The notes under the pieces are model-generated. The model searched no databases. It saw only the letters and a program-made list of their open reading frames with translations, and was not told the DNA's origin. From the IMG/VR virus record IMGVR_UViG_3300047551_002158: a DNA stretch of 64,000 nucleotides, one strand, 5' to 3'. The position numbers were made by a program, and so were the translations under genes. This DNA comes from a virus. Lineage: Duplodnaviria > Caudoviricetes. The stretch's first letter is position 1. Each line of letters opens with the position of its first letter. Positions 4,025-22,414 of the stretch are shown one piece after another.

Positions 4025-4777
4025 ATGGCACTCTGGGGAAATAATGATGCTAAAGGATCTGGCGGTACAGTATCTTTAAATTATGAGACTCTTGTTGTAA
4101 CTGGATCAGGAACTACCTTTGGTCAAGTTGGAGCAGCAGCAACTGGTGATGTAATTAGATTTGGCGCGGCATTCGGTGTGCATTATGGTGATGCCGTAAT
4201 TGTTGGAATTGCAAGTACTACAGTGCTCTCAATTGCATCGACTGCTGGACTAAGTGGAGATGCAATTTCTGGAGTTCAATTCCAGATTAGCGAATCTCCA
4301 AAATTTGCTGTTCTTGACAGCCATTGGAATCAGTCAACTGGTTCTGTAACAGAGACTTATAACTTCTTACAGACTACTGCAACTTACACTGCAGGTGTTG
4401 GAACAGATAAAATTTTGGTTGGAAGTGTTGTTGGAGTAAAAACTGGAGATACTCTAACCGGAGTTAATACGACTGGCGTTGTTGCTTCTATTGGAACAAC
4501 TTCTGTTTCTCTTGCATCCACTATTGGATCTGCTATTACTGCGGGAGATATTATTAAATTCTCAAGAGTAACTGGTGGACATGAATCCGTTGTGGTTGGA
4601 GTCAGTAGTATTTCTGTTGGAGCTGCTGCATCCACTAAGTTTGAATTAACTCACTCTGGGTGGGTTGGTATTATGACATACACAGATAGTGAAGGTAATC
4701 TGAGAGTTAAGAGTGAAGTTCTTGTTGCAATGTCTGGAATCACGACAGGAAATACTGATTATCCACCTGCACTATAA
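4025..4777 (+). CDS. virion structural protein (MALWG-type, Gly/Thr/Val-rich)
   Basis: Beta-rich composition typical of cyanophage structural proteins; TATAAATA late promoter at about 3983. Confidence 0.65.
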   Translation: MALWGNNDAKGSGGTVSLNYETLVVTGSGTTFGQVGAAATGDVIRFGAAFGVHYGDAVIVGIASTTVLSIASTAGLSGDAISGVQFQISESPKFAVLDSHWNQSTGSVTETYNFLQTTATYTAGVGTDKILVGSVVGVKTGDTLTGVNTTGVVASIGTTSVSLASTIGSAITAGDIIKFSRVTGGHESVVVGVSSISVGAAASTKFELTHSGWVGIMTYTDSEGNLRVKSEVLVAMSGITTGNTDYPPAL

Positions 4778-4780
4778 TGT

Positions 4781-5173
4781 ATGATCTTTAATGAATTGAA
4801 TGAGGATAATTTCCTCATGTTTGCTATTAAACATTATGAAAATCCTCAGGCAGTTACTAAAGAAGACTTTGAGAAGGATTTAAATCACTTTAAGTATATT
4901 AAAAGATTATTGAAAAGATATAAAAGAGAAGGTGAATTAAAAACTCATCTTCTCTTGAATCATTTTATTATTCTTTATAATATTTTTGGAGAAGCAACAA
5001 CTCCAATGTTATTTTTTAAAATTGAAAAAGATCTTTGGTCCTCTGTAAAATCATTTATAATATTTCTTGGTAGATTTCCAGAATATCCTAAAACATTAAT
5101 ACACGATATTCCTGTTGATATAAATTGCCTATCCGAACTCTATAAAATCTACAATGGAAAAGAAGAAGATTGA
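4781..5173 (+). CDS. conserved T4-like phage hypothetical protein
   Basis: MIFNELNEDNFLMFAIKHYENP...LKTHLLLNH pattern recalled from cyanomyoviruses. Confidence 0.75.
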   Translation: MIFNELNEDNFLMFAIKHYENPQAVTKEDFEKDLNHFKYIKRLLKRYKREGELKTHLLLNHFIILYNIFGEATTPMLFFKIEKDLWSSVKSFIIFLGRFPEYPKTLIHDIPVDINCLSELYKIYNGKEED

Positions 5174-5387
5174 TAAAGTCATTGAAGCATTTCGTAATTA
5201 TATTAATTTAAAAGAAGAGGGAATGGTCACGGGAAGTTCTTCTGGTTCTCCTGGGTTTAGTGGATCTTCTGATCCGAAAGGTCCAACCGCAGGATTTGAT
5301 CCTGTAATGGGATTGGGAAAAAGAAAAGGTCCGCAGATAAAACTTCCACCTGGTTCCCGTAGAAGGTGGATGAAACCAAAAAACTAA
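5154..5387 (+). CDS. small hypothetical protein
   Basis: Overlaps the upstream ORF; 77 aa, Gly/Ser-rich with basic tail. Confidence 0.65.
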   Translation: MEKKKIDKVIEAFRNYINLKEEGMVTGSSSGSPGFSGSSDPKGPTAGFDPVMGLGKRKGPQIKLPPGSRRRWMKPKN

Positions 5388-5452
5388 ATAATATTAAAAC
5401 TACTTGAGTTATTTGTTTCCAGTAGTGTAAGAAATAATAACTCACACGGAAA

Positions 5453-5857
5453 ATGTTTAATTCAAATACTTCTGCTGATACTAAAATTGCTGTATTAGAA
5501 GAGCGTCTATCTTCTTATGAACTTATGTTAAAAAAGATAGATGAAGCAATTCAAATTATGGGGAAGACGAGTCAAAATATTAGCAAGATGCTTGCCGTTC
5601 ACGAAGAAAGAATAGAGCAGTGTCACAAAGCTGATGATTATGTTAGCAGACTGATTGAAGAATTGAAAATTGAGAATAAAGATTCGCACGAAGCAGTGGC
5701 AGAAAGAATTGAAAAAGTTGAAAATAAATTGGAAGAATTTGTAAAATTTCGTTGGATAATAGTTGGAGTTTTTGCAGTTATATCTTTTGGACTATCGCAA
5801 TCACACGTAGTTGTTGATTTATTAACTCCAGATACTCAGCAACAAGTAATAAAATAA
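5453..5857 (+). CDS. coiled-coil protein with C-terminal transmembrane helix
   Basis: Heptad-rich region followed by WIIVGVFAVISFGL; CTAAATA upstream. Confidence 0.7.
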   Translation: MFNSNTSADTKIAVLEERLSSYELMLKKIDEAIQIMGKTSQNISKMLAVHEERIEQCHKADDYVSRLIEELKIENKDSHEAVAERIEKVENKLEEFVKFRWIIVGVFAVISFGLSQSHVVVDLLTPDTQQQVIK

Positions 5858-6027: not shown

Positions 6028-7023
6028 ATGGATTTTGTTGATGTTAAATACATCAATTTGATTTCTGGAAGATTTCATAAGTTCAAAAAAATAAAACATA
6101 ATCTTTATAATTTTCGTTGCCCAATCTGTGGAGATTCGCAAAAGAATAAAAATAAGGCAAGGGGATATCTCTATCAAGTAAAAAACAATACAAACTTTAA
6201 GTGTCATAATTGTGGTATCAATATATCTTTTAATAACTTTTTAAAACAAATTGATATTACGATTCATAAGCAATATACCTTTGAAAAATTTAAAGAAGGT
6301 CATAGTGGTAAAAACTTTACTGCAGAAGAACCTCAGTTTAATTTTCAGAAACCAGACTTTTTCACAAAACGTGAAAATTCGGAAAATGTGAAAAAGTTGG
6401 GTTTACCGAAAGCGTTAACAAATCCTAACGCAAAAAAGTATCTGGAAAGTAGAAAATTAAATCCAGATAACTATTATTACACCGAAAAATTTAAAGAGTG
6501 GACTAATTCTCTTCGACCAACATTCGACAATACAAATCAAGATGAACCAAGGATTATTATTCCTTTGTTTTATCAAAATAAGTTAGTCGGATTTCAGGGA
6601 AGAGCACTTGGTCCCAGTAAGGTAAAGTACATTACTATAATGCTTGATGATGACGCACCAAAAATTTATGGTCTTGATGAAGTCAAAAAAAGTGAAACTG
6701 TCTACATCACAGAAGGTCCCTTTGACTCAACATTCATTCGCAACGCGATTGCTCTTTGTGGAGCTGATGGCGATCTTGATAAGTGGAATATTGGCAGGCG
6801 TGTTTGGATTTATGATAACGAACCACGTAATGCAGAAATCACCAACAGGATCGCAAAGCGTATTGATGAAGGAGAACAAGTTGTAATTTGGCCTTCTACA
6901 ATATCCGAAAAGGATATTAATGATATGGTTTTATCTGGACTGAATGTTCAAGATGTGATAGAATCAAATACTTACTCTGGTTTAGAAGCAAAACTTAAAT
7001 TTACTACCTGGAAGAAAATATGA
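6028..7023 (+). CDS. gp61: DNA primase (T4 gp61-like)
   Basis: Zn finger RCPICGDS...KCHNCG; TOPRIM motifs EGPFDS and YDNEPRN; TTGACA-N17-TAGAAT promoter at about 5975-6003. Confidence 0.95.
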   Translation: MDFVDVKYINLISGRFHKFKKIKHNLYNFRCPICGDSQKNKNKARGYLYQVKNNTNFKCHNCGINISFNNFLKQIDITIHKQYTFEKFKEGHSGKNFTAEEPQFNFQKPDFFTKRENSENVKKLGLPKALTNPNAKKYLESRKLNPDNYYYTEKFKEWTNSLRPTFDNTNQDEPRIIIPLFYQNKLVGFQGRALGPSKVKYITIMLDDDAPKIYGLDEVKKSETVYITEGPFDSTFIRNAIALCGADGDLDKWNIGRRVWIYDNEPRNAEITNRIAKRIDEGEQVVIWPSTISEKDINDMVLSGLNVQDVIESNTYSGLEAKLKFTTWKKI

Positions 7024-9317
7024 GCAACGGTACAAAAGTTAAAAAGCGTGATGGTCGAATTGAGTCTCTTGACCTGGAAAAGATGCACTTGATGGTTGAA
7101 GAGGCGTGTAAGGGTCTTGCAGGCGTCTCTGCGAGTCAAGTTGAGATGACATCTGGTATTCAGTTTTATGATGGTATCACCACTGCAGAGATTCAGGAGA
7201 TTCTGATTCGATCTGCTTCTGACCTGATCGATCTTGATCACCCTAATTATCAGTTTGTTGCTGCCCGTCTGCTTCTTTTTGCAGTTCGTAAGCAACTTTA
7301 TGGAAAGATGAAAGAACTTCCTCATCTTGAGCAGCACATTTATAACTGTGTTAATCAGGAAGTTTATGATAATGATATTTACAGCAAGTACTCAAAGGAA
7401 GAGATTGATAAGGCAAACTCTTTTATTGATCACGATAGAGATTATCTCTTTACTTACGCTGGACTTCGCCAGGTTGTTGATAAGTATTTGGTTCAGGATC
7501 GCAGTTCAGGTGGAGTATATGAAACTCCGCAGTTCATGTATATGATGATTGCTCTGACTATCTTTGCAGAGTATCCAAAAGAAACAAGAATGTCATATGT
7601 CAAGAGGTATTATGACGCAATCTCCAAACACAAAATCAACATCCCTACCCCCATTATGGCAGGCGTTAGGACACCACTTAGACAATTCGCTAGCTGTGTT
7701 CTTGTTGATGTTGATGACACCCTCGATAGCATCTTTAGTTCTGATATGGCTATTGGCAGATACGTTGCACAAAGGGCGGGAATCGGTATCAACGCAGGTC
7801 GCATCAGGGGTATCAACAGCAAAATCAGAGGTGGAGAAGTTCAACATACAGGTGTTGTCCCTTTCCTCAAAAAGTTTGAAGCAACTGTCCGATGCTGCAC
7901 TCAGAATGGCATCCGTGGTGGATCAGCAACTGTCCACTTCCCAATCTGGCACCAAGAAATAGAAGACATTCTTGTTCTTAAAAACAACAAGGGAACGGAA
8001 GATAATCGTGTCCGTAAACTTGATTATTCTATCCAAATTAGTAAGTTGTTTTATGAAAGATTTATTCAAGACGGTGAGATCACGCTTTTCTCTCCACATG
8101 ATGTACCTGGACTTTATGATTCTTTCGGACTCCCTGAGTTTGACGATCTCTATGTTTCGTATGAAAAAGATTCGTCCATTCCGAAAAAAACTATTAAAGC
8201 ACAAGAACTCATCCTTAACCTTCTTAAAGAACGTGCGGAAACAGGTCGTATCTACCTTATGAATATTGACCATTGCAATTCTCACTCTTCATTTAAGGAT
8301 AAAGTTAATATGAGCAATCTCTGTCAAGAGATTACTCTTCCTACTGATCCTATTCAGCATATTGATGATACTCATGGAGAAATTGCTCTGTGTATTCTTT
8401 CTGCCATTAACGTGGGCAAAGTTAAATCTGATGAAGAACTTGAGGATCTTTGTGATCTTTCTGTTCGTGGTTTGGATGAGTTGATCGACTATCAGAAATA
8501 CCCCGTAGAGGCGGCAGAAATCGCCACGAAGGCACGTCGTTCTCTTGGCATAGGATTTATTGGTCTTGCTCACTATTTGGCAAAACTTGGTTTTGATTAT
8601 GATTCTCAAGAGGCGTGGGATGCTGTTCATGGACTTTCAGAATCATTCCAATATTATCTTTTGAAAGCATCTAATCAACTTGCTAAAGAAAAGGGATATT
8701 GTGAATACTTTGGTCGTACCAAGTATGCTGATGGTATTCTTCCAATTGACACTTACAAAAAAGATGTAGACGAAATTTCATCTATCACACTTCAACATGA
8801 TTGGGAAAATCTTAGAGCATCCATCTTGGCTCACGGTCTCAGGCACTCAACATTGTCCGCACAGATGCCATCGGAGAGTAGTTCCGTTGTGTCAAATGCG
8901 ACAAATGGAATCGAACCTCCCCGTGGTTTCCTGTCCGTTAAGAAATCGAAGAAGGGCCCTCTCAAGCAGATTGTCCCTCAATATCAAACTCTTAAGAACA
9001 ACTATACGCTTCTTTGGGATATGGAGTCCAATCGTGGTTACATTAATATTGTTGCTTTGATGCAGAAGTTCTTTGATCAAGCGATTTCTGGAAACTGGTC
9101 TTATAATCCAGAAAATTATCAAGATAATGAAGTTCCTGTATCAGTAATGGCAAATGACTTTTTGACTACATACAAGTACGGGTGGAAAACTTCTTATTAC
9201 CAAAACACTTATGATATTAAGACTGATGAGGTAGTAGAAGAAAAACCCAATCTTCAAGATTTGTTAAGTGAGTTAAGTTCAGTAGAGGAGGGAGAGTGTG
9301 AATCCTGTGCAGTTTAA
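7020..9317 (+). CDS. nrdA: class Ia ribonucleotide reductase alpha subunit
   Basis: ATP cone (VKKRDG), ASCVL, SNLCQEIT, TSYYQN and C-terminal CESC all intact; no intein or intron. Confidence 0.98.
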   Translation: MSNGTKVKKRDGRIESLDLEKMHLMVEEACKGLAGVSASQVEMTSGIQFYDGITTAEIQEILIRSASDLIDLDHPNYQFVAARLLLFAVRKQLYGKMKELPHLEQHIYNCVNQEVYDNDIYSKYSKEEIDKANSFIDHDRDYLFTYAGLRQVVDKYLVQDRSSGGVYETPQFMYMMIALTIFAEYPKETRMSYVKRYYDAISKHKINIPTPIMAGVRTPLRQFASCVLVDVDDTLDSIFSSDMAIGRYVAQRAGIGINAGRIRGINSKIRGGEVQHTGVVPFLKKFEATVRCCTQNGIRGGSATVHFPIWHQEIEDILVLKNNKGTEDNRVRKLDYSIQISKLFYERFIQDGEITLFSPHDVPGLYDSFGLPEFDDLYVSYEKDSSIPKKTIKAQELILNLLKERAETGRIYLMNIDHCNSHSSFKDKVNMSNLCQEITLPTDPIQHIDDTHGEIALCILSAINVGKVKSDEELEDLCDLSVRGLDELIDYQKYPVEAAEIATKARRSLGIGFIGLAHYLAKLGFDYDSQEAWDAVHGLSESFQYYLLKASNQLAKEKGYCEYFGRTKYADGILPIDTYKKDVDEISSITLQHDWENLRASILAHGLRHSTLSAQMPSESSSVVSNATNGIEPPRGFLSVKKSKKGPLKQIVPQYQTLKNNYTLLWDMESNRGYINIVALMQKFFDQAISGNWSYNPENYQDNEVPVSVMANDFLTTYKYGWKTSYYQNTYDIKTDEVVEEKPNLQDLLSELSSVEEGECESCAV

Positions 9318-10488
9318 GATTTCTTCAACGGAAGAACCCCAAACAAATATTAAAGGAATGACCGTTTTTAACACTGAAAAAGTTGATACCAAAAAACAAC
9401 CAATGTTTTTTGGAAAACCTCTTGGAGTTCAAAGGTATGATTCATACAAATATCCAATCTTCGACAAACTGACTACTCAACAACTTGGATACTTCTGGAG
9501 ACCCGAAGAGGTGTCTCTCCAGAAGGATCGTGGCGATTATCAGACACTTCGCCCAGAGCAAAAGCATATCTATACTTCTAATCTGAAGTATCAGATTATG
9601 CTTGATTCTGTTCAGGGTCGTGGTCCTGGCATGGCATTTATTCCATACTGTTCACTTCCTGAACTGGAAGCGTGTATGGAAGTGTGGGGATTTATGGAAA
9701 TGATTCACTCACGCTCATACACATACATCATCAAAAACGTTTATTCAGATCCATCTGAGGTGTTTGATACTATCATTGGAGATGAGCGTATTCTGGAACG
9801 TGCTAAGAGTGTTACAGAGTCTTATGATGACTTTATTCAATCAGCACAACAATATGGTGTGTCCGATACTTGGATGCATAGACTTGAGGGAGTATCATAC
9901 GCAAAGGAATCACTCAACGATGTCAAACGAAAACTGTACAGAGCAGTCGCAAACGTTAATATTCTTGAAGGTATTCGCTTCTACGTTAGTTTTGCTTGTA
10001 GTTTCGCCTTTGGTGAACTTAAGCTTATGGAAGGATCCGCTAAAATCATTAGTCTCATCGCAAGAGACGAAAACCAACACTTAGCACTTACTCAGAACAT
10101 TCTGAATAAGTGGAAAGAAGGTGATGATCCTGAAATGAAGCAGATTGCAAAAGAAGAAGAAGAGTGGGTCTATAAAATGTTTGATCGTGCTGTAAACGAA
10201 GAGAAGAAATGGGCAGATTACCTGTTCAAAGATGGCAGCATGATTGGACTGAATGATAAACTTCTTCAGCAATATGTTGAATGGATTGCTAACCGTAGAC
10301 TGAAAGCAATAGGACTAAAACCACAGTATGATATTTCAGCAAACAATAATCCACTTCCTTGGACACAACACTGGATTTCTTCCAAAGGTCTTCAGGTTGC
10401 TCCGCAGCAAACTCAAGTGCAGTCTTATGTGGTTGGTGGAATAAAACAAGATGTCAAAAAAGACACATTTAGTGGTTTTAAACTTTAA
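9298..10488 (+). CDS. nrdB: class Ia ribonucleotide reductase beta subunit with an atypical Gln-rich tail
   Basis: FWRPEEV, EMIHSRSY, EGIRFY and DENQH motifs present; the tail reads VAPQQTQVQSY. Confidence 0.97.
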   Translation: MNPVQFKISSTEEPQTNIKGMTVFNTEKVDTKKQPMFFGKPLGVQRYDSYKYPIFDKLTTQQLGYFWRPEEVSLQKDRGDYQTLRPEQKHIYTSNLKYQIMLDSVQGRGPGMAFIPYCSLPELEACMEVWGFMEMIHSRSYTYIIKNVYSDPSEVFDTIIGDERILERAKSVTESYDDFIQSAQQYGVSDTWMHRLEGVSYAKESLNDVKRKLYRAVANVNILEGIRFYVSFACSFAFGELKLMEGSAKIISLIARDENQHLALTQNILNKWKEGDDPEMKQIAKEEEEWVYKMFDRAVNEEKKWADYLFKDGSMIGLNDKLLQQYVEWIANRRLKAIGLKPQYDISANNNPLPWTQHWISSKGLQVAPQQTQVQSYVVGGIKQDVKKDTFSGFKL

Positions 10489-10493
10489 TTGAC

Positions 10494-10548
10494 TTTAAGA
10501 CTGAAATAGTGTATTATATAAATAATAATAGGTAAGTTCAGTCTTAAA
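10494..10548 (+). promoter_or_regulatory. inverted repeat enclosing a T4-type late promoter, abutting the endonuclease start codon
   Basis: TTTAAGACTGAA (10494-10505) and TTCAGTCTTAAA (10537-10548) flank TATAAATA (10517-10524). Confidence 0.8.
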
Positions 10549-11163
10549 ATGAATAATTATATTCTTTACTATTACTTAAGGGAGGACTTTAGTTCTCCCT
10601 TTTATGTTGGTTATGGAAGACCAAGAAGAATTAATTCCAGACACTCCAGGAGAAATGGTGCTGAAATATTACCACCAAGAGAAAGAAGATGGATTGTAAA
10701 ATCTGGATTAACTAAAGAAGAAGCAATAGAACTTGAGATAAAACATATAGCACTCTGGAAAAGAGAATGTGATGGTGGGGTTTTGTTAAATCAAAATCTT
10801 GGTGGTGAAGGAAAACCTGGAGGACAGAGAACTAAAGGATTTAGTGGAAGGAAACATAGTGAAGAAGCAAAGAAAAGAATAAGTGAAAAAGCTGCTGGCA
10901 AGAATAATCCAAGATATGGTGTTAAATTATCACAAGAGACAAGAAATAAGATAAGTCAAAACAGAACACCAAAGTTTGGTAAAGATAATCCAAACTCTAA
11001 AACTTGGAAGATTGTTTCTCCAGAAAATAAAGAGTACATTATTACTGGAGCATTAAAAGAGTTTTGTAAGTCTCAAAATATTTCATATGCAACGATGCAC
11101 GCAGCAATTCTTTACGATAGAAAAGGGCCAAGAAGAAATGGATGGAGTATTGAGAAAGTTTAG
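10549..11163 (+). CDS. free-standing GIY-YIG (Seg-like) homing endonuclease with NUMOD3 repeats
   Basis: YILYYY...FYVGYG, LLNQNLGGEG, GRKHSEEAKKRISE, GKNNPRYG. Confidence 0.88.
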   Translation: MNNYILYYYLREDFSSPFYVGYGRPRRINSRHSRRNGAEILPPRERRWIVKSGLTKEEAIELEIKHIALWKRECDGGVLLNQNLGGEGKPGGQRTKGFSGRKHSEEAKKRISEKAAGKNNPRYGVKLSQETRNKISQNRTPKFGKDNPNSKTWKIVSPENKEYIITGALKEFCKSQNISYATMHAAILYDRKGPRRNGWSIEKV

Positions 11164-11551
11164 AATATCACTACCAGAAGATGAGTGTGTGATAAAACTT
11201 CAGGAGTATTGTAAGTTCTCTCATACTTTGTTAAAAGTTCCTGTAGTTTCTAAACCTTTATGTGCCGACGCAAACTGCCACAATAATGTTAATCATTATG
11301 TGAATACTTATGGTGGAGAAAAGATAAGTGGATATTATCTAATCACCGATGTTGATGATGAAACTTATGGATGTGCGATATATCATAGTATTTGGAAAAA
11401 TACTTACGGAGATTTGATAGATATAACTCCATTTGATGATGGTAGAGAATATAATATGTTCTCTGTGCTAGATGCTATAGATTATTACTCTGGAGTTGCT
11501 TATGATGGAAAAGTTTATAGAATATTAGAACCAGGACTTAATGTTGTTTAA
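11138..11551 (+). CDS. putative papain/transglutaminase-like Cys-His-Asp enzyme (candidate Gln deamidase)
   Basis: NCHNNV (C47), IYHSIW (H83), LIDITP (D95); the likely ATG overlaps the last codons of the endonuclease. The fold is inferred by eye. Confidence 0.5.
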   Translation: MDGVLRKFRISLPEDECVIKLQEYCKFSHTLLKVPVVSKPLCADANCHNNVNHYVNTYGGEKISGYYLITDVDDETYGCAIYHSIWKNTYGDLIDITPFDDGREYNMFSVLDAIDYYSGVAYDGKVYRILEPGLNVV

Positions 11552-11580: not shown

Positions 11581-12123
11581 ATGAACGCACAAGATTTTCG
11601 TAGTCTTCAAGAAGCATATTTGGAAGTTTATAATGACTTGGATGAAGGTGCTTCGGAAGACGTTGCTGCTAGATCCGAAAAACTTGCAAAACAAAGAAAG
11701 GGGCAAACACCTCAAAGAAAAGCAATGTATCAGGGACTTGCACTTAAAGCAAGAATTCGTGCTTCTGGAGGAAATCCTGGAGATAAATCACAGGGACATC
11801 CTTTAAGGAGAGCATCTAATAGACCTATTCACCCCCACGATAGTAAGTATGGTAGATCTGGTTTAACTCAATCTAAAAGAGATGAAAGAAGAGATATAGA
11901 TGCCGCAACTCATGGTGAGTATAGTGATGGTCCTGGAACTGTAACAAAAAATCCAAAAAAACTTCGTAAGCAAAAAGCACTTGGAGAACTTGGAGAACAA
12001 GCAGACCTCTACGACATCATTCTCTCACACCTTCTTGATGAAGGATATGCCGAAACACCAGAAGCAGCAGAAGTCATTATGGTTAATATGAGTGAGGAGT
12101 GGAGAAACTCCATTCTTGGTTAA
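11581..12123 (+). CDS. cyanophage modular hypothetical protein (MNAQDFRSLQEAY family)
   Basis: Characteristic N-terminus and C-terminal DLYDIILSHLLDEGYA module; TATAAATA upstream. Confidence 0.7.
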   Translation: MNAQDFRSLQEAYLEVYNDLDEGASEDVAARSEKLAKQRKGQTPQRKAMYQGLALKARIRASGGNPGDKSQGHPLRRASNRPIHPHDSKYGRSGLTQSKRDERRDIDAATHGEYSDGPGTVTKNPKKLRKQKALGELGEQADLYDIILSHLLDEGYAETPEAAEVIMVNMSEEWRNSILG

Positions 12124-12142: not shown

Positions 12143-12292
12143 ATGTTACCAAAAATACTTTCTCAGGATTCAAACTATGATGAGTGGTGTGAACAAGAAA
12201 TTCTGAATGCTTATAAAGAAGCAGCAGAATGTGATGAATTTATGTTTGGAGATTATGACTTTTGTAGAGAATGGTTAGGTACAAATAACTAA
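12143..12292 (+). CDS. 49-aa acidic hypothetical protein
   Basis: MLPKILSQDSNYDEWCEQEIL..., read manually. Confidence 0.6.
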   Translation: MLPKILSQDSNYDEWCEQEILNAYKEAAECDEFMFGDYDFCREWLGTNN

Positions 12293-12330: not shown

Positions 12331-12492
12331 ATGTCTAAAAATCAGTTAACTAAAGATGAATTTAAAGTTCGTGTTTTAAAATTAAAAAATAATCTTTATA
12401 ACGAACACGTCAGACACGATATGGATATGAAAGGACTTGCCCATAAATATCTGAATGAAGTCCTTGATATTATTGATGAGTATAGATATTGA
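12331..12492 (+). CDS. 53-aa hypothetical protein
   Basis: MSKNQLTKDEFKVRVLKLK..., read manually; overlaps the next gene. Confidence 0.65.
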   Translation: MSKNQLTKDEFKVRVLKLKNNLYNEHVRHDMDMKGLAHKYLNEVLDIIDEYRY

Positions 12493-12919
12493 CTACGAAA
12501 ACCCTTGGATTTATAATGGAAGTCCCTTTATAAGTTCTGATATAGATGACCACTATGGATTTGTTTATTTGATAGAAAACAAACTAAATGGTCGAAAATA
12601 TATTGGAAGAAAATACTTTTGGCAGTTTAGAACACCTAAAGGTAAAAAAAGAAAGGTAAAATCAGAATCTAATTGGAAGGATTACTATGGGTCTTGTCCG
12701 GAACTTAAAGAAGACATTGATAAATTGGGCAGAGAGAATTTTAGTCGAACTATCCTATCATTACATAAAACAAAGGGCAAAACAAACTTTGAGGAGACCA
12801 GACGACTCTTTCTCAATGATGTCCTCACCGAATCTCTTGACAACGGAGGACCAGCCTGGTACAATAGTAACATCCTCAACAGGTACTTCCGAAAAGATTA
12901 TTATGGAAACAACGACTGA
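12476..12919 (+). CDS. conserved GIY-YIG-like nuclease family protein
   Basis: YGFVYLIEN...RKYIGRK and YYGS motifs; lacks NUMOD repeats. Confidence 0.75.
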   Translation: MSIDIDYENPWIYNGSPFISSDIDDHYGFVYLIENKLNGRKYIGRKYFWQFRTPKGKKRKVKSESNWKDYYGSCPELKEDIDKLGRENFSRTILSLHKTKGKTNFEETRRLFLNDVLTESLDNGGPAWYNSNILNRYFRKDYYGNND

Positions 12920-13232: not shown

Positions 13233-13859
13233 ATGCGAAACTGCTTTACTGTAGCCCTCTTGCCTCTTCTGGCAACGGTTACAACCACAACGGCAACACT
13301 GCCATCATCTGCTACTGCTCCCCAATATTCTATTATTAAGGAGTTTGAAACAGAGAAGACAGCAATCCGCGAGGTTGCTCCCGAAAAGCCAAAAGAGAAA
13401 AGGCTAATTTGTAAAGGGTGTAATGAACATGAAAATGCTGCCCTGGCATACTTTCAGGGAATTGGTATTAAAGACAGAAACGCCCTTGCTACCATCATGG
13501 GTAATATTCGTCAGGAATCAACTTTTATTCCTAACATTTGTGAAGGTGGTAGTAGAACCTCATACTATAATTGTGGAAGAGGTTATGGTTTGATACAATT
13601 TACTTCTGCTTCTCGTTATTATGGACTGGGTGCTTTTGCTAAAAAAATAGGAGGCAATCCTTCTACTGCTGATACTCAACTTCGGTATATTACTACTGAA
13701 CCACAATGGAAGAGTATTGAAAACAGAATGAGAGTTTCTGGAAAATCTATTGATAGGTATATGAATTATGCCTACGAATGGATTGGATGGGGACACCATG
13801 GAGCAAGAACACAATATGCTTATGACTATGCTAAACGATTGGTTCTTGCTGATGTCTAA
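13233..13859 (+). CDS. phage tail-lysozyme-family cell wall hydrolase with N-terminal signal/TM segment
   Basis: ALATIMGNIRQES and GYGLIQFT motifs; hydrophobic N-terminus. Confidence 0.8.
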   Translation: MRNCFTVALLPLLATVTTTTATLPSSATAPQYSIIKEFETEKTAIREVAPEKPKEKRLICKGCNEHENAALAYFQGIGIKDRNALATIMGNIRQESTFIPNICEGGSRTSYYNCGRGYGLIQFTSASRYYGLGAFAKKIGGNPSTADTQLRYITTEPQWKSIENRMRVSGKSIDRYMNYAYEWIGWGHHGARTQYAYDYAKRLVLADV

Positions 13860-13956: not shown

Positions 13957-14607
13957 ATGAAACACTTTTATGTGTATTATTCCTATGAGGAATATGGAAG
14001 GGGATATATTGGAAAAAGAGAATGTAAATGTCTTCCAGAAGAAGATGTAAGTTATTTTGGAAGTTTCAAAGATAAAACTTTCAATCCAACTCAAAAAATA
14101 ATATTAGAAACTTTTGATAGTGTGGAGAAAGCCCTGGCAGCAGAATGTGCTCTCCACGACTTTTATGAGGTAGATAAAAATCCACACTTTGCTAATAGAG
14201 CAAAACAAACTTCTACTGGATTTTATTGTAATAAAGGTGCTGGTGAAGAAGCAAATAAGAAAAGAAGTGAGTTGATGAAAACAGAATACAATCCTATGAG
14301 TAATCTAAAACTCAAAGAGAAAGCAAGAAAAAACTTGATTAGAACTTTGAGTAATCCAGAAATGAGAAAACTAAAAAGTAGAGTTGGAAAGAAAGCACAC
14401 AATCGTCCAGAAGTAGTTGAGAACCATAGACAGGCAGCACTCAAATCTCATCAAAATCCAGAAACAAAAAGAAAACATATTGAGGCAAAACTTGGTGAGA
14501 AAAATCCTTGTTATGGTAAAAAGTGGATTACAAATGGAAATGAAAACAAATACATAAATTCTATTGATGAAGTTCCAAGTGGTTTTTGGTATGGTAGAGT
14601 TGTTTGA
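13957..14607 (+). CDS. GIY-YIG-like free-standing homing endonuclease
   Basis: FYVYYSY...GYIGKR, YFGSF, NPHFAN, C-terminal GEKNPCYGKKWITNG. Confidence 0.85.
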   Translation: MKHFYVYYSYEEYGRGYIGKRECKCLPEEDVSYFGSFKDKTFNPTQKIILETFDSVEKALAAECALHDFYEVDKNPHFANRAKQTSTGFYCNKGAGEEANKKRSELMKTEYNPMSNLKLKEKARKNLIRTLSNPEMRKLKSRVGKKAHNRPEVVENHRQAALKSHQNPETKRKHIEAKLGEKNPCYGKKWITNGNENKYINSIDEVPSGFWYGRVV

Positions 14608-19361: not shown

Positions 19362-19472
19362 CATTTGAGCACCAGTCCCTTATAATACTCTCATAGGCAG
19401 CGGGGGTCCAAACTCCGCATAAATCCTTCACCCCCCAAGCCTCTTTATAATGCTCAAACAGGGGGGTCTCTT

Positions 19473-19546
19473 GTCTCAGTAGCTCAGTTGGATAGAGCAT
19501 CTGCCTTCTAAGCAGTTGGTCGGGGGTTCAAGTCCCTCCTGAGACG
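19473..19546 (+). tRNA. trnR: tRNA-Arg(TCT)
   Basis: Cloverleaf; anticodon loop CT-TCT-AA. Confidence 0.92.
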
Positions 19547-19642
19547 TTACCACTTGCGCTGGAAAGATAAACCAGAATGCCGTGGTAAGATAGAGGGTAA
19601 GCCTCTGTTATATCCTTGAGGTATATTACGTTTACTCCATCT

Positions 19643-19725
19643 GCTTCAGTGGTGGAACGGTAGACACAGCGGACTTAGAATCCGCCGCCTTAAAAAGCGT
19701 GGAAGTTCAAATCTTCTCTGGAGCA
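19643..19725 (+). tRNA. trnL: tRNA-Leu(TAG)
   Basis: GCGGA-CT-TAG-AA-TCCGC; long variable arm. Confidence 0.92.
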
Positions 19726-19765
19726 CTTGACAATCAAACTTAAATAGTTTATGATTGTCTTATAA

Positions 19766-19836
19766 GCGGGTATGGTGTAGCGGTAACACGCCATCCTTCC
19801 AAGTTGGAATCACCGGTTCGAACCCGGTTACCCGCT
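19766..19836 (+). tRNA. trnG: tRNA-Gly(TCC)
   Basis: GCGGGTA acceptor stem; CT-TCC-AA loop. Confidence 0.92.
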
Positions 19837-19838
19837 TT

Positions 19839-19911
19839 CCTCTGCGTAGTCTATTGGTAAGGACGGGTGGACAACACACATGGAAACTGGGTTCGATTCC
19901 CAGCCAGAGGT
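19839..19911 (+). ncRNA. atypical tRNA-like RNA (non-canonical anticodon loop)
   Basis: Canonical T arm CTGGG-TTCGATT-CCCAG and D arm GTC/GAC; acceptor stem bulged; loop GACAACA lacks U33. Confidence 0.6.
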
Positions 19912-19928
19912 ACACTTACTTTTTTCTT

Positions 19929-20108
19929 ATGGAAGTTGAAATTAATTCTATAAATATCGCAAGACTTCTAAGTGAATTAGAAGGTTGCTATATCTTCACC
20001 AAGTATATGGGTTTTGAAGATGATATGAATACAATTGATGAAATGAAGAAACGTTATTATAAACTTTACTTCAAACTTTATAAGGAAGAAAAAAGTAATC
20101 CACAATAG
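19929..20108 (+). CDS. hypothetical protein within the tRNA cluster
   Basis: MEVEINSINIARLLSELEG...; its stop codon lies inside tRNA-Asn. Confidence 0.65.
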   Translation: MEVEINSINIARLLSELEGCYIFTKYMGFEDDMNTIDEMKKRYYKLYFKLYKEEKSNPQ

Positions 20109-20170
20109 CTCAGCGGTAGAGTCGGTGACTGTTAATCACTTGGTCCCTGGTTCGAATCCAGGTTGTGGAG
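20099..20170 (+). tRNA. trnN: tRNA-Asn(GTT)
   Basis: TCCACAA/TTGTGGA acceptor stem; CT-GTT-AA loop. Confidence 0.92.
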
Positions 20171-20237
20171 TTGGGTGGTCGCGGTTGACGGTTAATTACC
20201 TTCTCAACATGCGAGTGGGAATACCTACCACCCTTAA

Positions 20238-20310
20238 GGGCGATTAACTCAGCGGTCAGAGTGTCTGCTTTACACGCAGAAAGTCCACGGTTCAAATCCG
20301 TGATTGCCCA
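20238..20310 (+). tRNA. trnV: tRNA-Val(TAC)
   Basis: TCTGC-TT-TAC-AC-GCAGA. Confidence 0.92.
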
Positions 20311-20337
20311 CTTGATAAATAAAAATAAAAGAGTATA

Positions 20338-20772
20338 ATGGAAAAACTGTATAAATTACTCAGTGATGCTCAGTCATCACTTTTTGTTTTATTCCATAAA
20401 ACTTGGGCATTTCATTGGAATGTTGTTGGTGAAGATTTCACTCAACTTCATCAACTCTTTGGTGGTCAGTATGAAACTATGTTTGAAGAGATTGACCGTC
20501 TCTCAGAACATATGAGATACTTAAATGTAAAACCTCTCAGTTCTCTCTCCAGAATGCTTGAGGTAACTCAAATTAAAGAGGCAGCAAGTTCGACAGGAGC
20601 AAAGGAAATGCTTCAAGAACTTCTTGAAAACAACGAAAAGTTTTGTGAGTTGATGGTAGAAATCTCAGAAGAAGCAGAAGAACAAAAGTCATATGCTACT
20701 GCTAATTTAGTTCAAGATTTAATGGAATCGCACGGTAAATTTATTTGGATGTTAAGATCACACCTACAATGA
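20338..20772 (+). CDS. dps: Dps ferritin-like DNA-protection protein
   Basis: FHWNVVG, FTQLHQLF, IDRLSEH and HGKFIWML motifs. Confidence 0.92.
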   Translation: MEKLYKLLSDAQSSLFVLFHKTWAFHWNVVGEDFTQLHQLFGGQYETMFEEIDRLSEHMRYLNVKPLSSLSRMLEVTQIKEAASSTGAKEMLQELLENNEKFCELMVEISEEAEEQKSYATANLVQDLMESHGKFIWMLRSHLQ

Positions 20773-20787
20773 ATAGGATGAAGAACA

Positions 20788-21039
20788 ATGTTATCAATAA
20801 GATGCAAAGACTGTAATAGAGAATTAACAGGACATCATTCAAAAACAGTAAGTTGTGGATGTCCAAATATGGCAACAATTCGCGGAGATAAGATTTCAGC
20901 ACTTGACTTATCCCGTATTGTTATGTTAAACTCTTTAAAAGAAAATTCAAAAACAAACATACTGACCTCTCAAGATATTGCTTGGCAGGAAGCACGTAGA
21001 CAACGTAAAGTTCGTCGTTTGGATTTTGAGGTTCGCTGA
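20788..21039 (+). CDS. conserved Cys-rich (zinc-ribbon-like) hypothetical protein
   Basis: CKDC...SCGCPN motifs. Confidence 0.7.
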   Translation: MLSIRCKDCNRELTGHHSKTVSCGCPNMATIRGDKISALDLSRIVMLNSLKENSKTNILTSQDIAWQEARRQRKVRRLDFEVR

Positions 21040-21049
21040 ACCTCTCATT

Positions 21050-21134
21050 GGAAAGGTGGCCGAGTGGTTTAAGGCAACTGTCTTGAAAACAGTCGATGTG
21101 AGAGCATCCGGAGGTTCGAATCCTCTCCTTTCCG
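21050..21134 (+). tRNA. trnS: tRNA-Ser(TGA)
   Basis: ACTGT-CT-TGA-AA-ACAGT; long variable arm; G73. Confidence 0.93.
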
Positions 21135-21249
21135 TTTTAAGTTAAGTTACAAATTTAACAATCTCTTCAGCAGTGTTAAGAATTCAACACCAAATGTTGA
21201 CGATGAAAGTTCTGTGGATAGTATATAGTAGTACTATCATTCAAAACTT

Positions 21250-21399
21250 ATGGACCAACATACCTATAATAATTGGGTCCGTATAAAGGAAACATTTGAA
21301 AAGTCTGGTAATACAGATAATATGTTCTATAAAAGAGCAATTGAAATTGTAAAAACAAGAGTTGATCCTCTTGCTAAATTTCTTGGAGATGAAAAGTGA
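21250..21399 (+). CDS. 49-aa conserved hypothetical protein
   Basis: MDQHTYNNWVRIKETFEKSGNTDNMFYKRA..., read manually. Confidence 0.65.
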   Translation: MDQHTYNNWVRIKETFEKSGNTDNMFYKRAIEIVKTRVDPLAKFLGDEK

Positions 21400-21599
21400 T
21401 GGAACCTCAAGACGAATTTATTACACGTTCTGAAGTTCAGGAGATGATCGATGCAGCAATACGACGACACAACCGTAATGCTTCTATCATTAGCATGTGC
21501 GTCGGTTGGGTGGTTCTTGCTTTATTTGCTGAAGGACTATTAAGACTGATTGGAGTTATTCCTCCACTACTTCCTTTTCTTAAAATTACTTTAAATTAA
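21399..21599 (+). CDS. small membrane protein
   Basis: EVQEMIDAAIRRHNRNA followed by a TM helix. Confidence 0.7.
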   Translation: MEPQDEFITRSEVQEMIDAAIRRHNRNASIISMCVGWVVLALFAEGLLRLIGVIPPLLPFLKITLN

Positions 21600-21604
21600 A
21601 GAAG

Positions 21605-21694
21605 ATGAGTAATACCATATATACTGCAATAACAATCTTTGGAGTTATTGGTTATTTAATTATTTGGGCCTTGACACACGCTTATCCATCATGA
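21605..21694 (+). CDS. 29-aa membrane peptide
   Basis: MSNTIYTAITIFGVIGYLIIWALTHAYPS; ATGA-coupled to the next ORF. Confidence 0.55.
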   Translation: MSNTIYTAITIFGVIGYLIIWALTHAYPS

Positions 21695-21810
21695 TAAAAT
21701 TTGTAGAGTTCCTTCTGACCAACCAAGTGTCTTTATTCGTCATTGGTTGCCTCTTGACAATCGCTCCAGCAATGGGTATAATGATTGTACATTCAACGAA
21801 GGAAAAGTAA
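21691..21810 (+). CDS. 39-aa membrane peptide
   Basis: MIKFVEFLLTNQVSLFVIGCLLTIAPAMGIMIVH...; ends immediately before tRNA-Pro. Confidence 0.55.
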   Translation: MIKFVEFLLTNQVSLFVIGCLLTIAPAMGIMIVHSTKEK

Positions 21811-21886
21811 CGGAGTATCGCCTAACTTGGTCATGGCACCTGCTTTGGGAGCAGGAATAATTTCGGTTCAAATCCGAATACTCCGA
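21811..21886 (+). tRNA. trnP: tRNA-Pro(TGG)
   Basis: CCTGC-TT-TGG-GA-GCAGG; C1 start typical of Pro. Confidence 0.9.
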
Positions 21887-21903
21887 CTCATAAATCTCAC
21901 TTT

Positions 21904-22134
21904 ATGAAAATGAATCAGGAAATTGACGATCTTACAACGTTTACAATTGAAGAATTTCAGGCAGATTTTGACAATCTTATGAATAGAGTTGAAAGTGGAG
22001 AATCATTTATCATAAAAAGTGAGCATGGAAATGCAGTAATAGTACCATATAACGAAGTGGTGCAAGTATTTCAAGAATCTGGTATGAGTGACGAACTCAT
22101 ACGAATACACACAGACCACGAAGAAGGTTCTTGA
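21904..22134 (+). CDS. Phd/YefM-like antitoxin-fold protein
   Basis: FTIEEFQADFDNLMNRVESGESFII...AVIVPY pattern. Confidence 0.65.
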   Translation: MKMNQEIDDLTTFTIEEFQADFDNLMNRVESGESFIIKSEHGNAVIVPYNEVVQVFQESGMSDELIRIHTDHEEGS

Positions 22135-22173
22135 CAAAGGGTTCCAGGTCCTCTACAATAGATCTGGTTTTAA

Positions 22174-22261
22174 GCGAGTGAGACTTGGTAGTCAGAGAGG
22201 TCTTATAAACCTTTTCCGCCAGATTAGCGGCTTTGAGATGGTTCGAATCCATCCACTCGTA
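22174..22261 (+). tRNA. atypical tRNA with TAT anticodon and long variable arm
   Basis: GCGAGTG/CACTCGT acceptor, GAGGT-CT-TAT-AA-ACCTT, CCGC/GCGG variable arm, canonical T arm, shortened D region, A73. Confidence 0.75.
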
Positions 22262-22265
22262 CCTT

Positions 22266-22338
22266 GCTCCTTTAGCAATCTGGTGAATGCAGCGAACTCA
22301 TAATTCGCCTGAGGCGTGTTCGATCCACGCAAGGAGCA
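22266..22338 (+). tRNA. tRNA with CAT anticodon (elongator Met or Ile2)
   Basis: GCGAA-CT-CAT-AA-TTCGC; paired G1-C72, so not an initiator tRNA. Confidence 0.88.
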
Positions 22339-22414
22339 CTGGACGCTTACTAAAGCGTCCTACTTGACTTTCAAACATCACTTCTCTATAATACTAAGGT
22401 CAACAATCAAAACA

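What the first reader, a model, noticed from the sequence alone, without database searches (positions are those of the whole stretch)
10390..11551. Candidate protein-editing homing system: Gln-for-Glu NrdB tail, homing endonuclease and a putative glutamine deamidase
Seen: NrdB ends VAPQ-Q-T-Q-V-Q-SY (codons CAA, CAA, CAG at 10408-10422), where the recalled cyanophage consensus is VAPQETEVESY. Each change is a single G-to-C at codon position 1. Q371 lies six residues before Y377, so it is the E. coli E350/Y356 pair. All di-iron ligands and all NrdA catalytic residues are intact, so this does not look like decay. Known: E350 is conserved in class Ia beta and E350Q inactivates the E. coli enzyme; free-standing homing endonucleases cut conserved codons of the neighbouring gene and the carrier allele must be immune. 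Seen: right after nrdB come a GIY-YIG endonuclease and an overlapping ORF (11138..11551) with C47/H83/D95 in NCHNNV / YHSIW / IDITP context, resembling the Cys-His-Asp triad of papain/transglutaminase-fold protein-glutamine deamidases. Inference: the cassette recodes essential Glu codons to escape its own nuclease and restores Glu post-translationally; it could also work as an activation switch for RNR.
Basis: partly seen in the sequence, partly recalled or inferred. Interest (0 to 1): 0.92.

Follow-up and report, generated by a model that had tools for sequence, protein, structure and literature searches.

The report
Gln-recoded RNR tail with dedicated enzyme
In many uncultured phages the essential acidic residues of the ribonucleotide reductase small-subunit tail are encoded as glutamine, and every such gene is followed by a small, previously undescribed Cys-His-Asp protein, usually next to or fused with a homing endonuclease, which suggests the protein is repaired after translation.

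Summary
NrdB (9298-10488) ends VAPQ-Q-T-Q-V-Q-S-Y, where close relatives have VAPQETEVESY. Q371 aligns with E. coli E350, which is essential for turnover, and Y377 aligns with Y356.

This is a recurrent allele, not an assembly error. It occurs in hundreds of independent metagenome contigs and in at least 26 NrdB clusters (42-78% identical to each other). Both CAA and CAG are used at the recoded sites.

- Among 199 distinct NrdB sequences, Q350 never occurs without a homolog of ORF 11138-11551 ("X") immediately downstream (73 with, 0 without).
- 107 E-type sequences lack X, and 19 carry X.
- The coupling holds whether a GIY-YIG endonuclease lies between nrdB and X, after X, is fused to X, or is absent.

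X defines a new family with invariant Cys47, His83 and Asp95. The models are confident (pLDDT 90-93). The best, but weak, fold matches are transglutaminase/papain-like thiol enzymes.

In the window the cassette (its own nrdB 3' end, endonuclease, X) was inserted 12 codons before the nrdB stop. The displaced E-type 3' end survives at 12143-12180.

The most likely reading is that X deamidates the tail Gln residues to Glu. This is inferred, not shown.

The parts
7020..9317 (+). nrdA, class Ia RNR alpha subunit, apparently intact
   Evidence: E 1e-274 to E. coli R1. The NLCQE...SCV......LCIL......YYQN... and C-terminal CxxC motifs are present. K155 and S643 are invariant in both Q-tail and E-tail loci. 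By motif and my recollection of E. coli numbering, these correspond to K154 and S647, the alpha residues that contact beta E350.
9298..10488 (+). nrdB, class Ia RNR beta subunit carrying the Gln-recoded tail
   Evidence: PF00268 match at E 4e-58 and E 3e-125 to E. coli R2, with metal-ligand and radical-Tyr motifs conserved. dN/dS is 0.047 among cassette-bearing loci.
10408..10428 (+). Recoded tail segment Q371-T-Q373-V-Q375-S-Y377, equivalent to E. coli 350-356
   Evidence: Within each phage lineage the Q-type and E-type tails differ only by Glu to Gln at these positions.
10451..10488 (+). The cassette's own copy of the last 12 nrdB codons plus stop (DVKKDTFSGFKL*). The left junction of the insertion is at about 10450/10451.
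   Evidence: similarity to E-type loci ends here, and the E-type version of this stretch reappears at 12143.
10549..11163 (+). Free-standing GIY-YIG/NUMOD3 homing endonuclease (204 aa)
   Evidence: It is absent from E-type loci at this position. dN/dS is 0.116.
11138..11551 (+). X: a 137-aa protein of a new family with invariant Cys47, His83 and Asp95; candidate NrdB-tail glutamine amidohydrolase
   Evidence: It always follows Q350-type nrdB. dN/dS is 0.142.
11581..12123 (+). 180-aa ORF of unknown function. It is an additional insertion present in this window but absent at this place in other cassette-bearing loci (L113, L120, L123).
12143..12180 (+). Displaced remnant of the original E-type nrdB 3' end (reads ..VTKNTFSGFKL* in the nrdB frame). 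It also forms the start of the small ORF 12143-12292.
   Evidence: It aligns base for base with the true nrdB 3' end of E-type locus L082 and with the sequence directly after X in L113.

Best explanation
Proposed mechanism. X is a thiol (Cys-His-Asp) amidohydrolase dedicated to the NrdB C-terminal tail. The gene encodes Gln at the positions that must be Glu (E. coli E350 and E352, and position 354 where the lineage has Glu). X converts these side-chain amides to carboxylates after translation, which restores the canonical acidic tail needed for radical transfer to NrdA.

Consequence. A Q-tail nrdB is then useless without X, which would explain why the two are never found apart. X is usually adjacent to or fused with a GIY-YIG homing endonuclease. 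In the window it arrived as one insertion that replaced the last 12 codons of nrdB. The whole unit therefore behaves as a mobile cassette whose loss is penalised: the dependence of NrdB on X keeps X in place even after the endonuclease has gone.

Shown:
- the recoding itself;
- its strict one-way coupling to X;
- the invariance of the Cys-His-Asp triad;
- the anatomy of the cassette;
- purifying selection on nrdB, the endonuclease and X.

Inferred:
- that X acts on the tail;
- that the reaction is deamidation;
- that unmodified Q-tail NrdB is inactive;
- what the endonuclease cuts.
For: 1. One-way coupling. A DNA-pattern scan for A-P-Q-Q-T-Q-[VI]-x-x-Y, made blind to X, returned 116 further loci. 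All are in or beside nrdB. Every locus with room downstream has an X-family ORF on the same strand. Among 199 distinct NrdB bodies the counts are Q350 with X 73, Q350 without X 0, E350 without X 107, E350 with X 19.

2. Replication. The Q state changes at least 22 times on the NrdB tree. On 8-9 independent pairs on supported branches, X goes the same way in 6.6-8.4 pairs and never the other way (sign test p about 0.016 and 0.008). In a second lineage, 70 E-tail relatives lack X and the 2 Q-tail relatives have it. In 185,579 prokaryote genomes the pattern hits nrdB only once, and X follows it there too.

3. Independence from the endonuclease. The observed orders are nrdB-HEG-X, nrdB-X-HEG, nrdB-X::HEG fusion, and nrdB-X alone followed by glutaredoxin. 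In L245, X is intact beside a 64-aa endonuclease remnant.

4. Precision of the recoding. Q-type and E-type tails are otherwise identical within each lineage. The only change ever seen at these sites is Glu to Gln, with both Gln codons in use.

5. No compensating change in NrdA. No NrdA column separates Q from E loci. The residues taken to contact E350 are invariant in both.

6. E350 is essential in the E. coli enzyme. It is described as essential for turnover, it contacts K154 and S647 of alpha, and its substitution disrupts radical transfer (PMC8463856; PMC11482829).

7. X looks like a thiol enzyme. C47, H83 and D95 are invariant. In models of pLDDT 90 and 93, Cys sits at a helix N-terminus and His and Asp on adjacent strands. 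The top fold rows are TglA (Z 4.3, 74 residues aligned, 2.9 A), PeiW (Z 4.0), staphopain C (3.5), PeiP (3.4), an arylamine N-acyltransferase (3.2) and LapG (3.0).

8. Complex prediction of X with NrdB residues 350-396 gave weak support. The score was 0.43 against a best control of 0.01. That mark was reached by 58 of 80 solved complexes and 2 of 110 mismatched pairs. At 0.60 or under, however, it was reached by only 7 of those 80 solved complexes and by both mismatches that passed. The runs agree in at least 55% of contacts, and the partner's pLDDT is at least 77.
Against: - No activity, modification or binding has been measured.
- Fold matches are weak (Z 4.3 or less). Foldseek finds nothing in the PDB. 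No Pfam, NCBI-style or PDB sequence relationship to any known deamidase was found.
- The tail codons and X lie within 0.1-0.8 kb of each other and move together. Co-occurrence is therefore partly what linkage and co-conversion would give anyway.
- Frequent fusion of X to a nuclease could mean its job concerns the nuclease rather than NrdB.
- Remote X relatives sit beside integrases with no nrdB nearby, so the family is not intrinsically tied to RNR.
- A deamidase would have to spare the conserved neighbouring Gln (E. coli Q349).
- E350 is reported not to be universal in other class I subclasses, so some RNRs manage without it.
Confidence: 0.45

Rival explanations
1. Linkage only. The Gln codons are the cleavage-resistant (immunity) allele of the endonuclease's target, or simply ride along with the cassette. 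Phage RNR tolerates Gln at these positions. X does something unrelated to NrdB, for example as an accessory domain of the nuclease or an enzyme aimed at a host target.
For: - The recoded codons lie 28-42 nt upstream of the insertion junction. From memory, that is within the range where GIY-YIG enzymes such as I-TevI cut relative to their insertion site.
- X is fused to GIY-YIG/NUMOD3 nucleases in many lineages.
- About 95% of Q-tail loci carry an endonuclease, against about 5% of E-tail loci.
- G to C at codon position 1 is the only single-base escape that keeps a near-isosteric residue.
Against: - Q-tail with X persists without any endonuclease in at least 5 lineages.
- An intact endonuclease coexists with an E tail and no X (L102).
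- Q without X is never seen, while X without Q is seen. That asymmetry is expected from dependence, not from symmetric linkage.
- Each lineage keeps its own tail context, so the tails were not imported from a single donor.
- E350 is essential in E. coli.
Confidence: 0.22
2. X uses the tail Gln residues as acyl donors for a reaction other than hydrolysis. One option is a transglutaminase-type isopeptide to a Lys of NrdA (E350 lies next to K154 of alpha) or to an amine. This would give a modified tail with new properties rather than a restored one.
For: - A Cys-His-Asp triad and the best fold matches to transglutaminase-like enzymes.
- Gln-rich segments are typical acyl donors (general knowledge).
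- Gln is kept under selection even where no endonuclease is present.
- E350 beta hydrogen-bonds K154 alpha.
Against: - The beta tail must leave alpha for product release (PMC8463856), so a covalent tether should block turnover.
- E-type and Q-type tails pair with indistinguishable NrdA proteins.
- Loci with X and an E-type position 350 are viable.
Confidence: 0.1
3. X is not a hydrolase but a metal-binding helper, using Cys47, His48, His83 and Asp95 as ligands. Like YfaE or NrdI in other RNR operons, it would support NrdB directly and make the acidic tail residues dispensable.
For: - His48 is nearly invariant next to Cys47.
- X sits inside the RNR operon, between nrdB and glutaredoxin, in L209 and L276.
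- Small accessory proteins downstream of nrdB are known in bacteria (general knowledge).
Against: - Three of the X copies beside nrdB have Glu at position 48.
- The Cys-helix, His-strand, Asp-strand arrangement is that of catalytic triads.
- This idea gives no reason why Glu would be replaced specifically and only by Gln.
Confidence: 0.08
4. Protein-level weapon and immunity. X cleaves or damages E-type NrdB tails of co-infecting phages, and the Gln tail makes the carrier's own NrdB resistant.
For: - Homing endonucleases already act in exclusion between phages (general knowledge).
- Glu-to-Gln changes would abolish recognition by an enzyme specific for acidic residues.
Against: - This predicts the opposite asymmetry from the one observed. 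Q without X should be harmless and common, but was seen 0 times.
- X with an all-Glu tail should be self-harming, yet L005 and L046 exist, and 19 distinct sequences have E350 together with X.
Confidence: 0.05

Closest known systems
Pup and Dop in actinobacteria; chemoreceptors with CheD or CheB
   Same: In both systems a gene encodes Gln where the working protein needs Glu, and a dedicated deamidase makes the conversion. For Pup, some species encode Glu directly and skip the step. That parallels the E-type and Q-type nrdB alleles seen here. (General knowledge.)
   Different: - The target here is a catalytic-pathway residue of an essential metabolic enzyme.
- The putative enzyme is unrelated in sequence to Dop, CheD or CheB.
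- The pair is carried on a mobile endonuclease cassette in phages.
- The activity is only inferred.
Papain/transglutaminase-fold protein-glutamine deamidases and relatives (protein-glutaminase, OspI, TecA, Cif, NTAQ1; PeiW/PeiP, LapG, NAT)
   Same: - A Cys-His-Asp triad, with Cys at a helix N-terminus and His and Asp on strands.
- The best structural matches fall in this group.
   Different: - There is no detectable sequence homology.
- Z scores are 4.3 or less.
- The core is very small, about 90 residues.
- Membership in this group is not established.
Collaborative homing: a free-standing endonuclease plus a group I intron (F-CphI and psbA in cyanophage S-PM2); T4 mobE and I-TevIII at nrdB
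   Same: A free-standing endonuclease sits beside a conserved phage gene and travels with a second element that keeps the host gene functional. The RNR locus is a known hot spot for such elements (PMC2790892, listed).
   Different: Here the partner is a protein-coding gene with an enzyme-like triad, not an intron. Any rescue would happen at the protein level.
Fungal mitochondrial GIY-YIG elements that insert near the 3' end of a gene and bring a replacement 3' end (Allomyces atp6)
   Same: The insertion replaces the last codons of the host gene with the element's own copy and leaves the displaced end behind, as at 10451-10488 and 12143-12180. (General knowledge for the fungal case.)
   Different: The fungal elements carry no accessory enzyme and do not recode essential residues.

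Membership tests
Class Ia RNR beta subunit (NrdB) | Ferritin-like fold with di-iron ligands and the radical tyrosine | tested here: met
   PF00268 match at E 4e-58. The alignment to E. coli R2 (E 3e-125) has the ligand and Tyr motifs conserved.
Class Ia RNR beta subunit (NrdB) | C-terminal tail with the pathway Tyr (Y356) and the essential Glu (E350) | tested here: not met
   Tyr is present (Y377), but the codon at the E350 position encodes Gln (Q371). The protein is otherwise a standard NrdB. This unmet feature is the finding itself.
GIY-YIG homing endonuclease | GIY-YIG catalytic domain plus DNA-binding modules | tested here: inconclusive
   NUMOD3 match at E 6e-13 and a phrog_314 homing endonuclease match. 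GIY and YIG motifs are visible by eye. Pfam's GIY-YIG models are not matched by the window copy, but they are matched by the fused and type-B relatives.
GIY-YIG homing endonuclease | Presence/absence polymorphism at a fixed site, with co-converted flanks | tested here: met
   E-type loci lack the block at exactly this site. A displaced nrdB 3' end marks the insertion.
GIY-YIG homing endonuclease | Site-specific cleavage of the allele that lacks the element | not testable with these tools
   This needs a cleavage assay on E-type and Q-type DNA.
Papain/transglutaminase-like thiol enzymes | Catalytic Cys at a helix N-terminus, with His and Asp (or Asn) on following strands | tested here: met
   C47, H83 and D95 are invariant. 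Their secondary-structure placement is seen in two models of pLDDT 90 and 93. Three-dimensional distances could not be read.
Papain/transglutaminase-like thiol enzymes | Significant structural or sequence similarity to members | tested here: inconclusive
   The best matches are TglA (Z 4.3), PeiW (4.0), staphopain C (3.5), PeiP (3.4), NAT (3.2) and LapG (3.0). Foldseek, Pfam and PDB profile searches give nothing significant.
Protein-glutamine deamidases | Conversion of protein Gln to Glu in a defined substrate | not testable with these tools
   The only evidence is genomic coupling to a Gln-recoded substrate, plus weak support from complex prediction (0.43 against a control of 0.01).

The most novel reading that the evidence does not exclude
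A selfish homing cassette enforces its own retention at the protein level. It installs Gln codons in place of essential Glu codons of the neighbouring RNR gene and carries the only enzyme able to turn them back into Glu. Losing the cassette would then inactivate an essential enzyme. This would be a form of genetic addiction based on post-translational editing. It may also make the carrier allele uncuttable by the cassette's nuclease.
Probability: 0.3. Interest if true: 0.95.

Novelty: categorically new. Interest (0 to 1): 0.88.

Why it matters
- **RNR mechanism.** E350 of the RNR beta tail is treated as indispensable for radical transfer. Thousands of natural phage genes encoding Gln there mean either that the residue is made after translation or that class Ia RNR can work without it. 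Either answer bears on a long-studied mechanism.
- **A new enzyme family.** The finding adds a widespread phage family with an invariant Cys-His-Asp triad and a clear candidate substrate.
- **Mobile-element biology.** If the addiction reading holds, it shows a new way for a mobile element to persist: by making a host protein depend on element-encoded editing.
- **Annotation.** NrdB genes of this type should not be assumed active on their own.

Tried and rejected
- **Assembly error.** Rejected, because the allele recurs in many independent assemblies.
- **Decay of nrdB.** Rejected. dN/dS is 0.047 and the catalytic motifs are intact.
- **A second E-type nrdB in the window.** None was found. The whole genome is not held, so the rest of the roughly 224-kb contig could not be checked.
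- **Compensating change in NrdA.** None was found.
- **Fold and family searches for X:**
  - Foldseek against the PDB with both models gave nothing at E 0.001 or better.
  - The second-look search gave only staphopain at Z 2.4.
  - In BFVD the best match is an X::GIY-YIG fusion, and the rest are uncharacterised phage proteins.
  - Pfam has no family for X.
  - PHROGs gives only phrog_37148, of unknown function.
  - tblastn against 50,697 cultured or deposited phage records gave no match.
  - The ESM Atlas offered only YunG-like clusters at 0.86, below the level worth trusting.
- **PDB profile search.** It gave one borderline hit (E 0.026) to a 32-residue stretch of a 173-residue chain named DNA polymerase (9hth_A). 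It resembles intein block B by my reading. I treated it as chance because the X model contains helices and does not look like a Hint fold.
- **Contexts of remote X relatives.** P0166 and P0184 lie beside integrases, P0171 lies on short contigs with no informative neighbours, and none has nrdB nearby. The link to NrdB is therefore a property of one subfamily.
- **Literature.** Searches found no description of a Gln-tail NrdB or of X. The E350 mutagenesis paper (PMC5689411) is not held.
Full report
**What is in the window.** The region belongs to an uncultured T4-like cyanophage. The nearest deposited genomes (Synechococcus phages S-SM2 and S-SCSM1) are about 78% identical in DNA over nrdA-nrdB and share nothing beyond the end of nrdB. 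The genes are:
- nrdA, 7020-9317;
- nrdB, 9298-10488;
- a 204-aa endonuclease, 10549-11163;
- an overlapping 137-aa ORF, 11138-11551, called X here;
- a 180-aa ORF, 11581-12123.

NrdB ends VAPQQTQVQSY followed by 19 residues. The Gln codons are at 10408, 10414 and 10420. Alignment to E. coli R2 is ungapped over this tail. It puts Q371 on E350, Q373 on E352, Q375 on S354 and Y377 on Y356, and the metal-ligand and radical-Tyr motifs are conserved. NrdA keeps its catalytic motifs.

**The Gln tail is a real, recurrent allele.** Among NrdB proteins 94-100% identical to this one, the usual tail is VAPQETEVESY. VAPQQTQVQSY and VAPQETQVQSY recur in assemblies from ENA, JGI, NCBI and Logan. Q-type and E-type proteins are equally similar to the window's NrdB over residues 1-360, so the tail state is uncoupled from the rest of the gene. 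At the DNA level the change is G to C at the first base of each Glu codon. Both CAA and CAG occur at each site, so Gln itself, or at least the first two codon bases, is maintained.

**Coupling to X.**
- Loci selected for X (80 loci): 72 of the 74 with a readable tail have Gln at position 352, and usually at 350 as well.
- Loci selected for an E-type NrdB: none has X, and the three Q-type loci in that set all do.
- A pattern scan of IMG/VR for DNA encoding A-P-Q-Q-T-Q-[VI]-x-x-Y, which knows nothing about X, gave 116 further loci. All are in or beside nrdB, and every one with room downstream has an X-family ORF on the same strand. The seven without X end 0-433 nt after nrdB.
- These NrdBs fall into at least 26 clusters at 80% identity, 42-78% identical between clusters.
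- In a second lineage, 70 E-tail relatives have neither X nor an endonuclease, and the two Q-tail relatives have both.
- Over 199 distinct NrdB bodies the counts are E350 without X 107, Q350 with X 73, E350 with X 19, Q350 without X 0. Q350 changes state at least 22 times on the tree. On 8-9 independent pairs on supported branches X changes the same way and never the opposite way (p about 0.016 and 0.008).
- In one genome per prokaryote species, the pattern hits nrdB once, in a Flavobacteriaceae MAG contig, and X follows it there as well.

**The endonuclease is common but not required.** Downstream of Q-type nrdB I found four arrangements:
- endonuclease then X, as in the window;
- X then endonuclease;
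- a single protein with X at the N-terminus fused to a LEM-3-like GIY-YIG domain and NUMOD3;
- X alone.

In L209 and L276, X is followed directly by glutaredoxin, giving nrdA-nrdB-X-grx. L245 keeps an intact X beside a 64-aa endonuclease remnant. Conversely, L102 has an intact GIY-YIG/NUMOD3 endonuclease after an E-type tail, with X precisely absent. At least three endonuclease types occupy the site. The tight link is therefore between the Gln tail and X, not between the Gln tail and a nuclease.

**The recoding is precise.** Within each lineage the E-type and Q-type tails are identical apart from Glu to Gln. Examples are ...QETEVESYVVGGIKQDVKKDTFSGFKL against the window's tail, and ...QETEISSY... 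against ...QQTQISSY... in the second lineage. No other replacement of these Glu residues was seen. The tails were therefore not copied from one donor. The same change has been made, or kept, in different sequence backgrounds.

**Anatomy of the cassette.** Compared with E-type loci, similarity stops at about 10460 and resumes at 12143, and the two matches overlap by about 12 nt on the E-type sequence. The reason is a duplication. The E-type nrdB 3' end, which reads DVTKNTFSGFKL-stop, is present at 12143-12180 in the window and directly after X in L113. The working nrdB uses a different copy at 10451-10488. The unit made of its own nrdB 3' end, the endonuclease and X was thus inserted 12 codons before the stop, and the Gln codons lie 28-42 nt upstream of that junction. 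The ORF at 11581-12123 is an extra insertion in this window. Among loci with this cassette type, dN/dS is 0.047 for nrdB, 0.116 for the endonuclease and 0.142 for X, so all three are under purifying selection.

**What X is.** A full HMMER search found 187 relatives at E 0.001 or better. In an alignment of 62 of them, the only invariant columns are C47, H83 and D95, and H48, N50 and several Gly are nearly invariant. All 101 complete distinct copies beside nrdB keep the three residues.

AlphaFold models of the whole protein (pLDDT 90.3) and of the core, residues 28-116 (pLDDT 93.0), place C47 at the start of a helix and H83 and D95 on the next two long strands. Foldseek finds no PDB match. The exhaustive aligner gives weak scores only. 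Its top rows over the core are nevertheless mostly thiol enzymes of the transglutaminase/papain kind:
- TglA, Z 4.3, 74 residues aligned, 2.9 A;
- PeiW, Z 4.0;
- staphopain C, Z 3.5;
- PeiP, Z 3.4;
- an arylamine N-acyltransferase, Z 3.2;
- LapG, Z 3.0.

By the tool's own calibration these values do not establish a shared fold. I record membership as inconclusive and the resemblance as a lead consistent with the triad. No library names the family, and no deposited phage genome carries it at tblastn sensitivity. More distant relatives occur beside integrases with no nrdB, so the wider family probably has other substrates.

**Why a functional link is the best reading.** E350 is described as one of two tail residues essential for turnover in the E. 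coli enzyme. It contacts K154 and S647 of alpha, and its substitution disrupts radical transfer. The phage NrdA proteins paired with Q and E tails show no distinguishing column, and the presumed contact residues are invariant. So the same alpha subunit must work with both tails.

A Cys-His-Asp enzyme attacks amides, and the only thing that distinguishes the Q-type tail is two or three extra side-chain amides. The asymmetry of the counts fits dependence of the Gln tail on X: Q never occurs without X, while X sometimes occurs without Q. It does not fit symmetric linkage, and it is the opposite of what a weapon-and-immunity model predicts.

Complex prediction of X with NrdB residues 350-396 gave weak support. 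The score was 0.43 against a best control of 0.01. That mark was reached by 58 of 80 solved complexes and 2 of 110 mismatched pairs, but at 0.60 or under by only 7 of those 80 and by both passing mismatches. The runs agree in at least 55% of contacts, and the partner's pLDDT is at least 77. Hydrolysis to Glu is favoured over cross-linking because the beta tail must dissociate for product release.

**What remains open.**
- Nothing here measures activity.
- The tail and X are physically close, so part of the association is what co-conversion would produce.
- The repeated fusion of X to nucleases is unexplained if X only serves NrdB. It makes sense if nuclease and X form one selfish unit.
- Whether the Gln codons protect against the cassette's own nuclease is untested. 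L102 shows this is not a general requirement.
- The EQQ alleles (Glu at 350, Gln at 352 and 354, always with X) may be partial revertants or intermediates.

**Comparison with known systems.** The logic resembles Pup/Dop and the chemoreceptor/CheD-CheB systems, where an encoded Gln is deamidated to a working Glu. The insertion mode resembles fungal mitochondrial GIY-YIG elements that bring a replacement 3' gene end. The partnership resembles collaborative homing of a free-standing endonuclease with an intron. None of these combines recoding of an essential enzyme residue with a cassette-borne candidate editing enzyme. Full-text searches found no description of the Gln-tail NrdB or of X.

**Verdict.** Interest is high.

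Noticed in passing
window 12455-12919 and 13957-14607: Two more homing-endonuclease-like genes lie within 3.5 kb of the cassette. One has a SegE-type GIY-YIG domain (Pfam E 2e-53). The other is a 216-aa ORF with a weak NUMOD3 match (Pfam E 0.0017, below the curated cut-off) and GIY-YIG-like motifs at its N-terminus by eye. With the cassette endonuclease that makes three in about 4 kb.
   Followed up: no
L084 3438-4166, L087 1009-1737, L102 3475-4203, L117 3735-4427, L113 4414-4986: In related phages the short nrdA-nrdB spacer (window about 9242-9268) holds 0.7-1.6 kb insertions. They encode GIY-YIG-like or HNH-like endonucleases plus a second small ORF, much like mobE in T4. The window lacks these insertions.
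   Followed up: partly
window 12143-12292: The 49-aa ORF starts inside the displaced nrdB 3' end. In E-type phages the same ORF overlaps the true end of nrdB. The need to keep this start may be why the remnant is preserved.
   Followed up: partly
window 11581-12123: This 180-aa ORF of unknown function is inserted between X and the nrdB remnant in this window. In other phages it occurs at other places. Only its last 54 residues match PHROG families, which are of unknown function.
   Followed up: no
window 19472-22339: A cluster of ten tRNA genes: Arg-TCT, Leu-TAG, Gly-TCC, Leu-CAA, Asn, Val-TAC, Ser-TGA, Pro-TGG, Ile-TAT and Met.
   Followed up: no
L367 4388-5879 (Flavobacteriaceae MAG contig): This is the only Q-tail nrdB found in the prokaryote genome collection. 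It reads in two frames (4388-5455 and 5308-5487), so it has a frameshift or a sequencing error. An X homolog follows it directly. It may be a prophage or a binned phage contig.
   Followed up: no
X residues 76-107 (window about 11363-11458): A profile of X gives a borderline match (E 0.026) to a 32-residue stretch of PDB chain 9hth_A, a 173-residue chain named DNA polymerase. By my reading it looks like intein block B (HSV..G..IDV.P). This is curious given the company X keeps, but the X model is not all-beta.
   Followed up: partly
window 13233-13859: This ORF matches the phage tail lysozyme family (PF18013, E 5e-14) and has a hydrophobic N-terminus.
   Followed up: no
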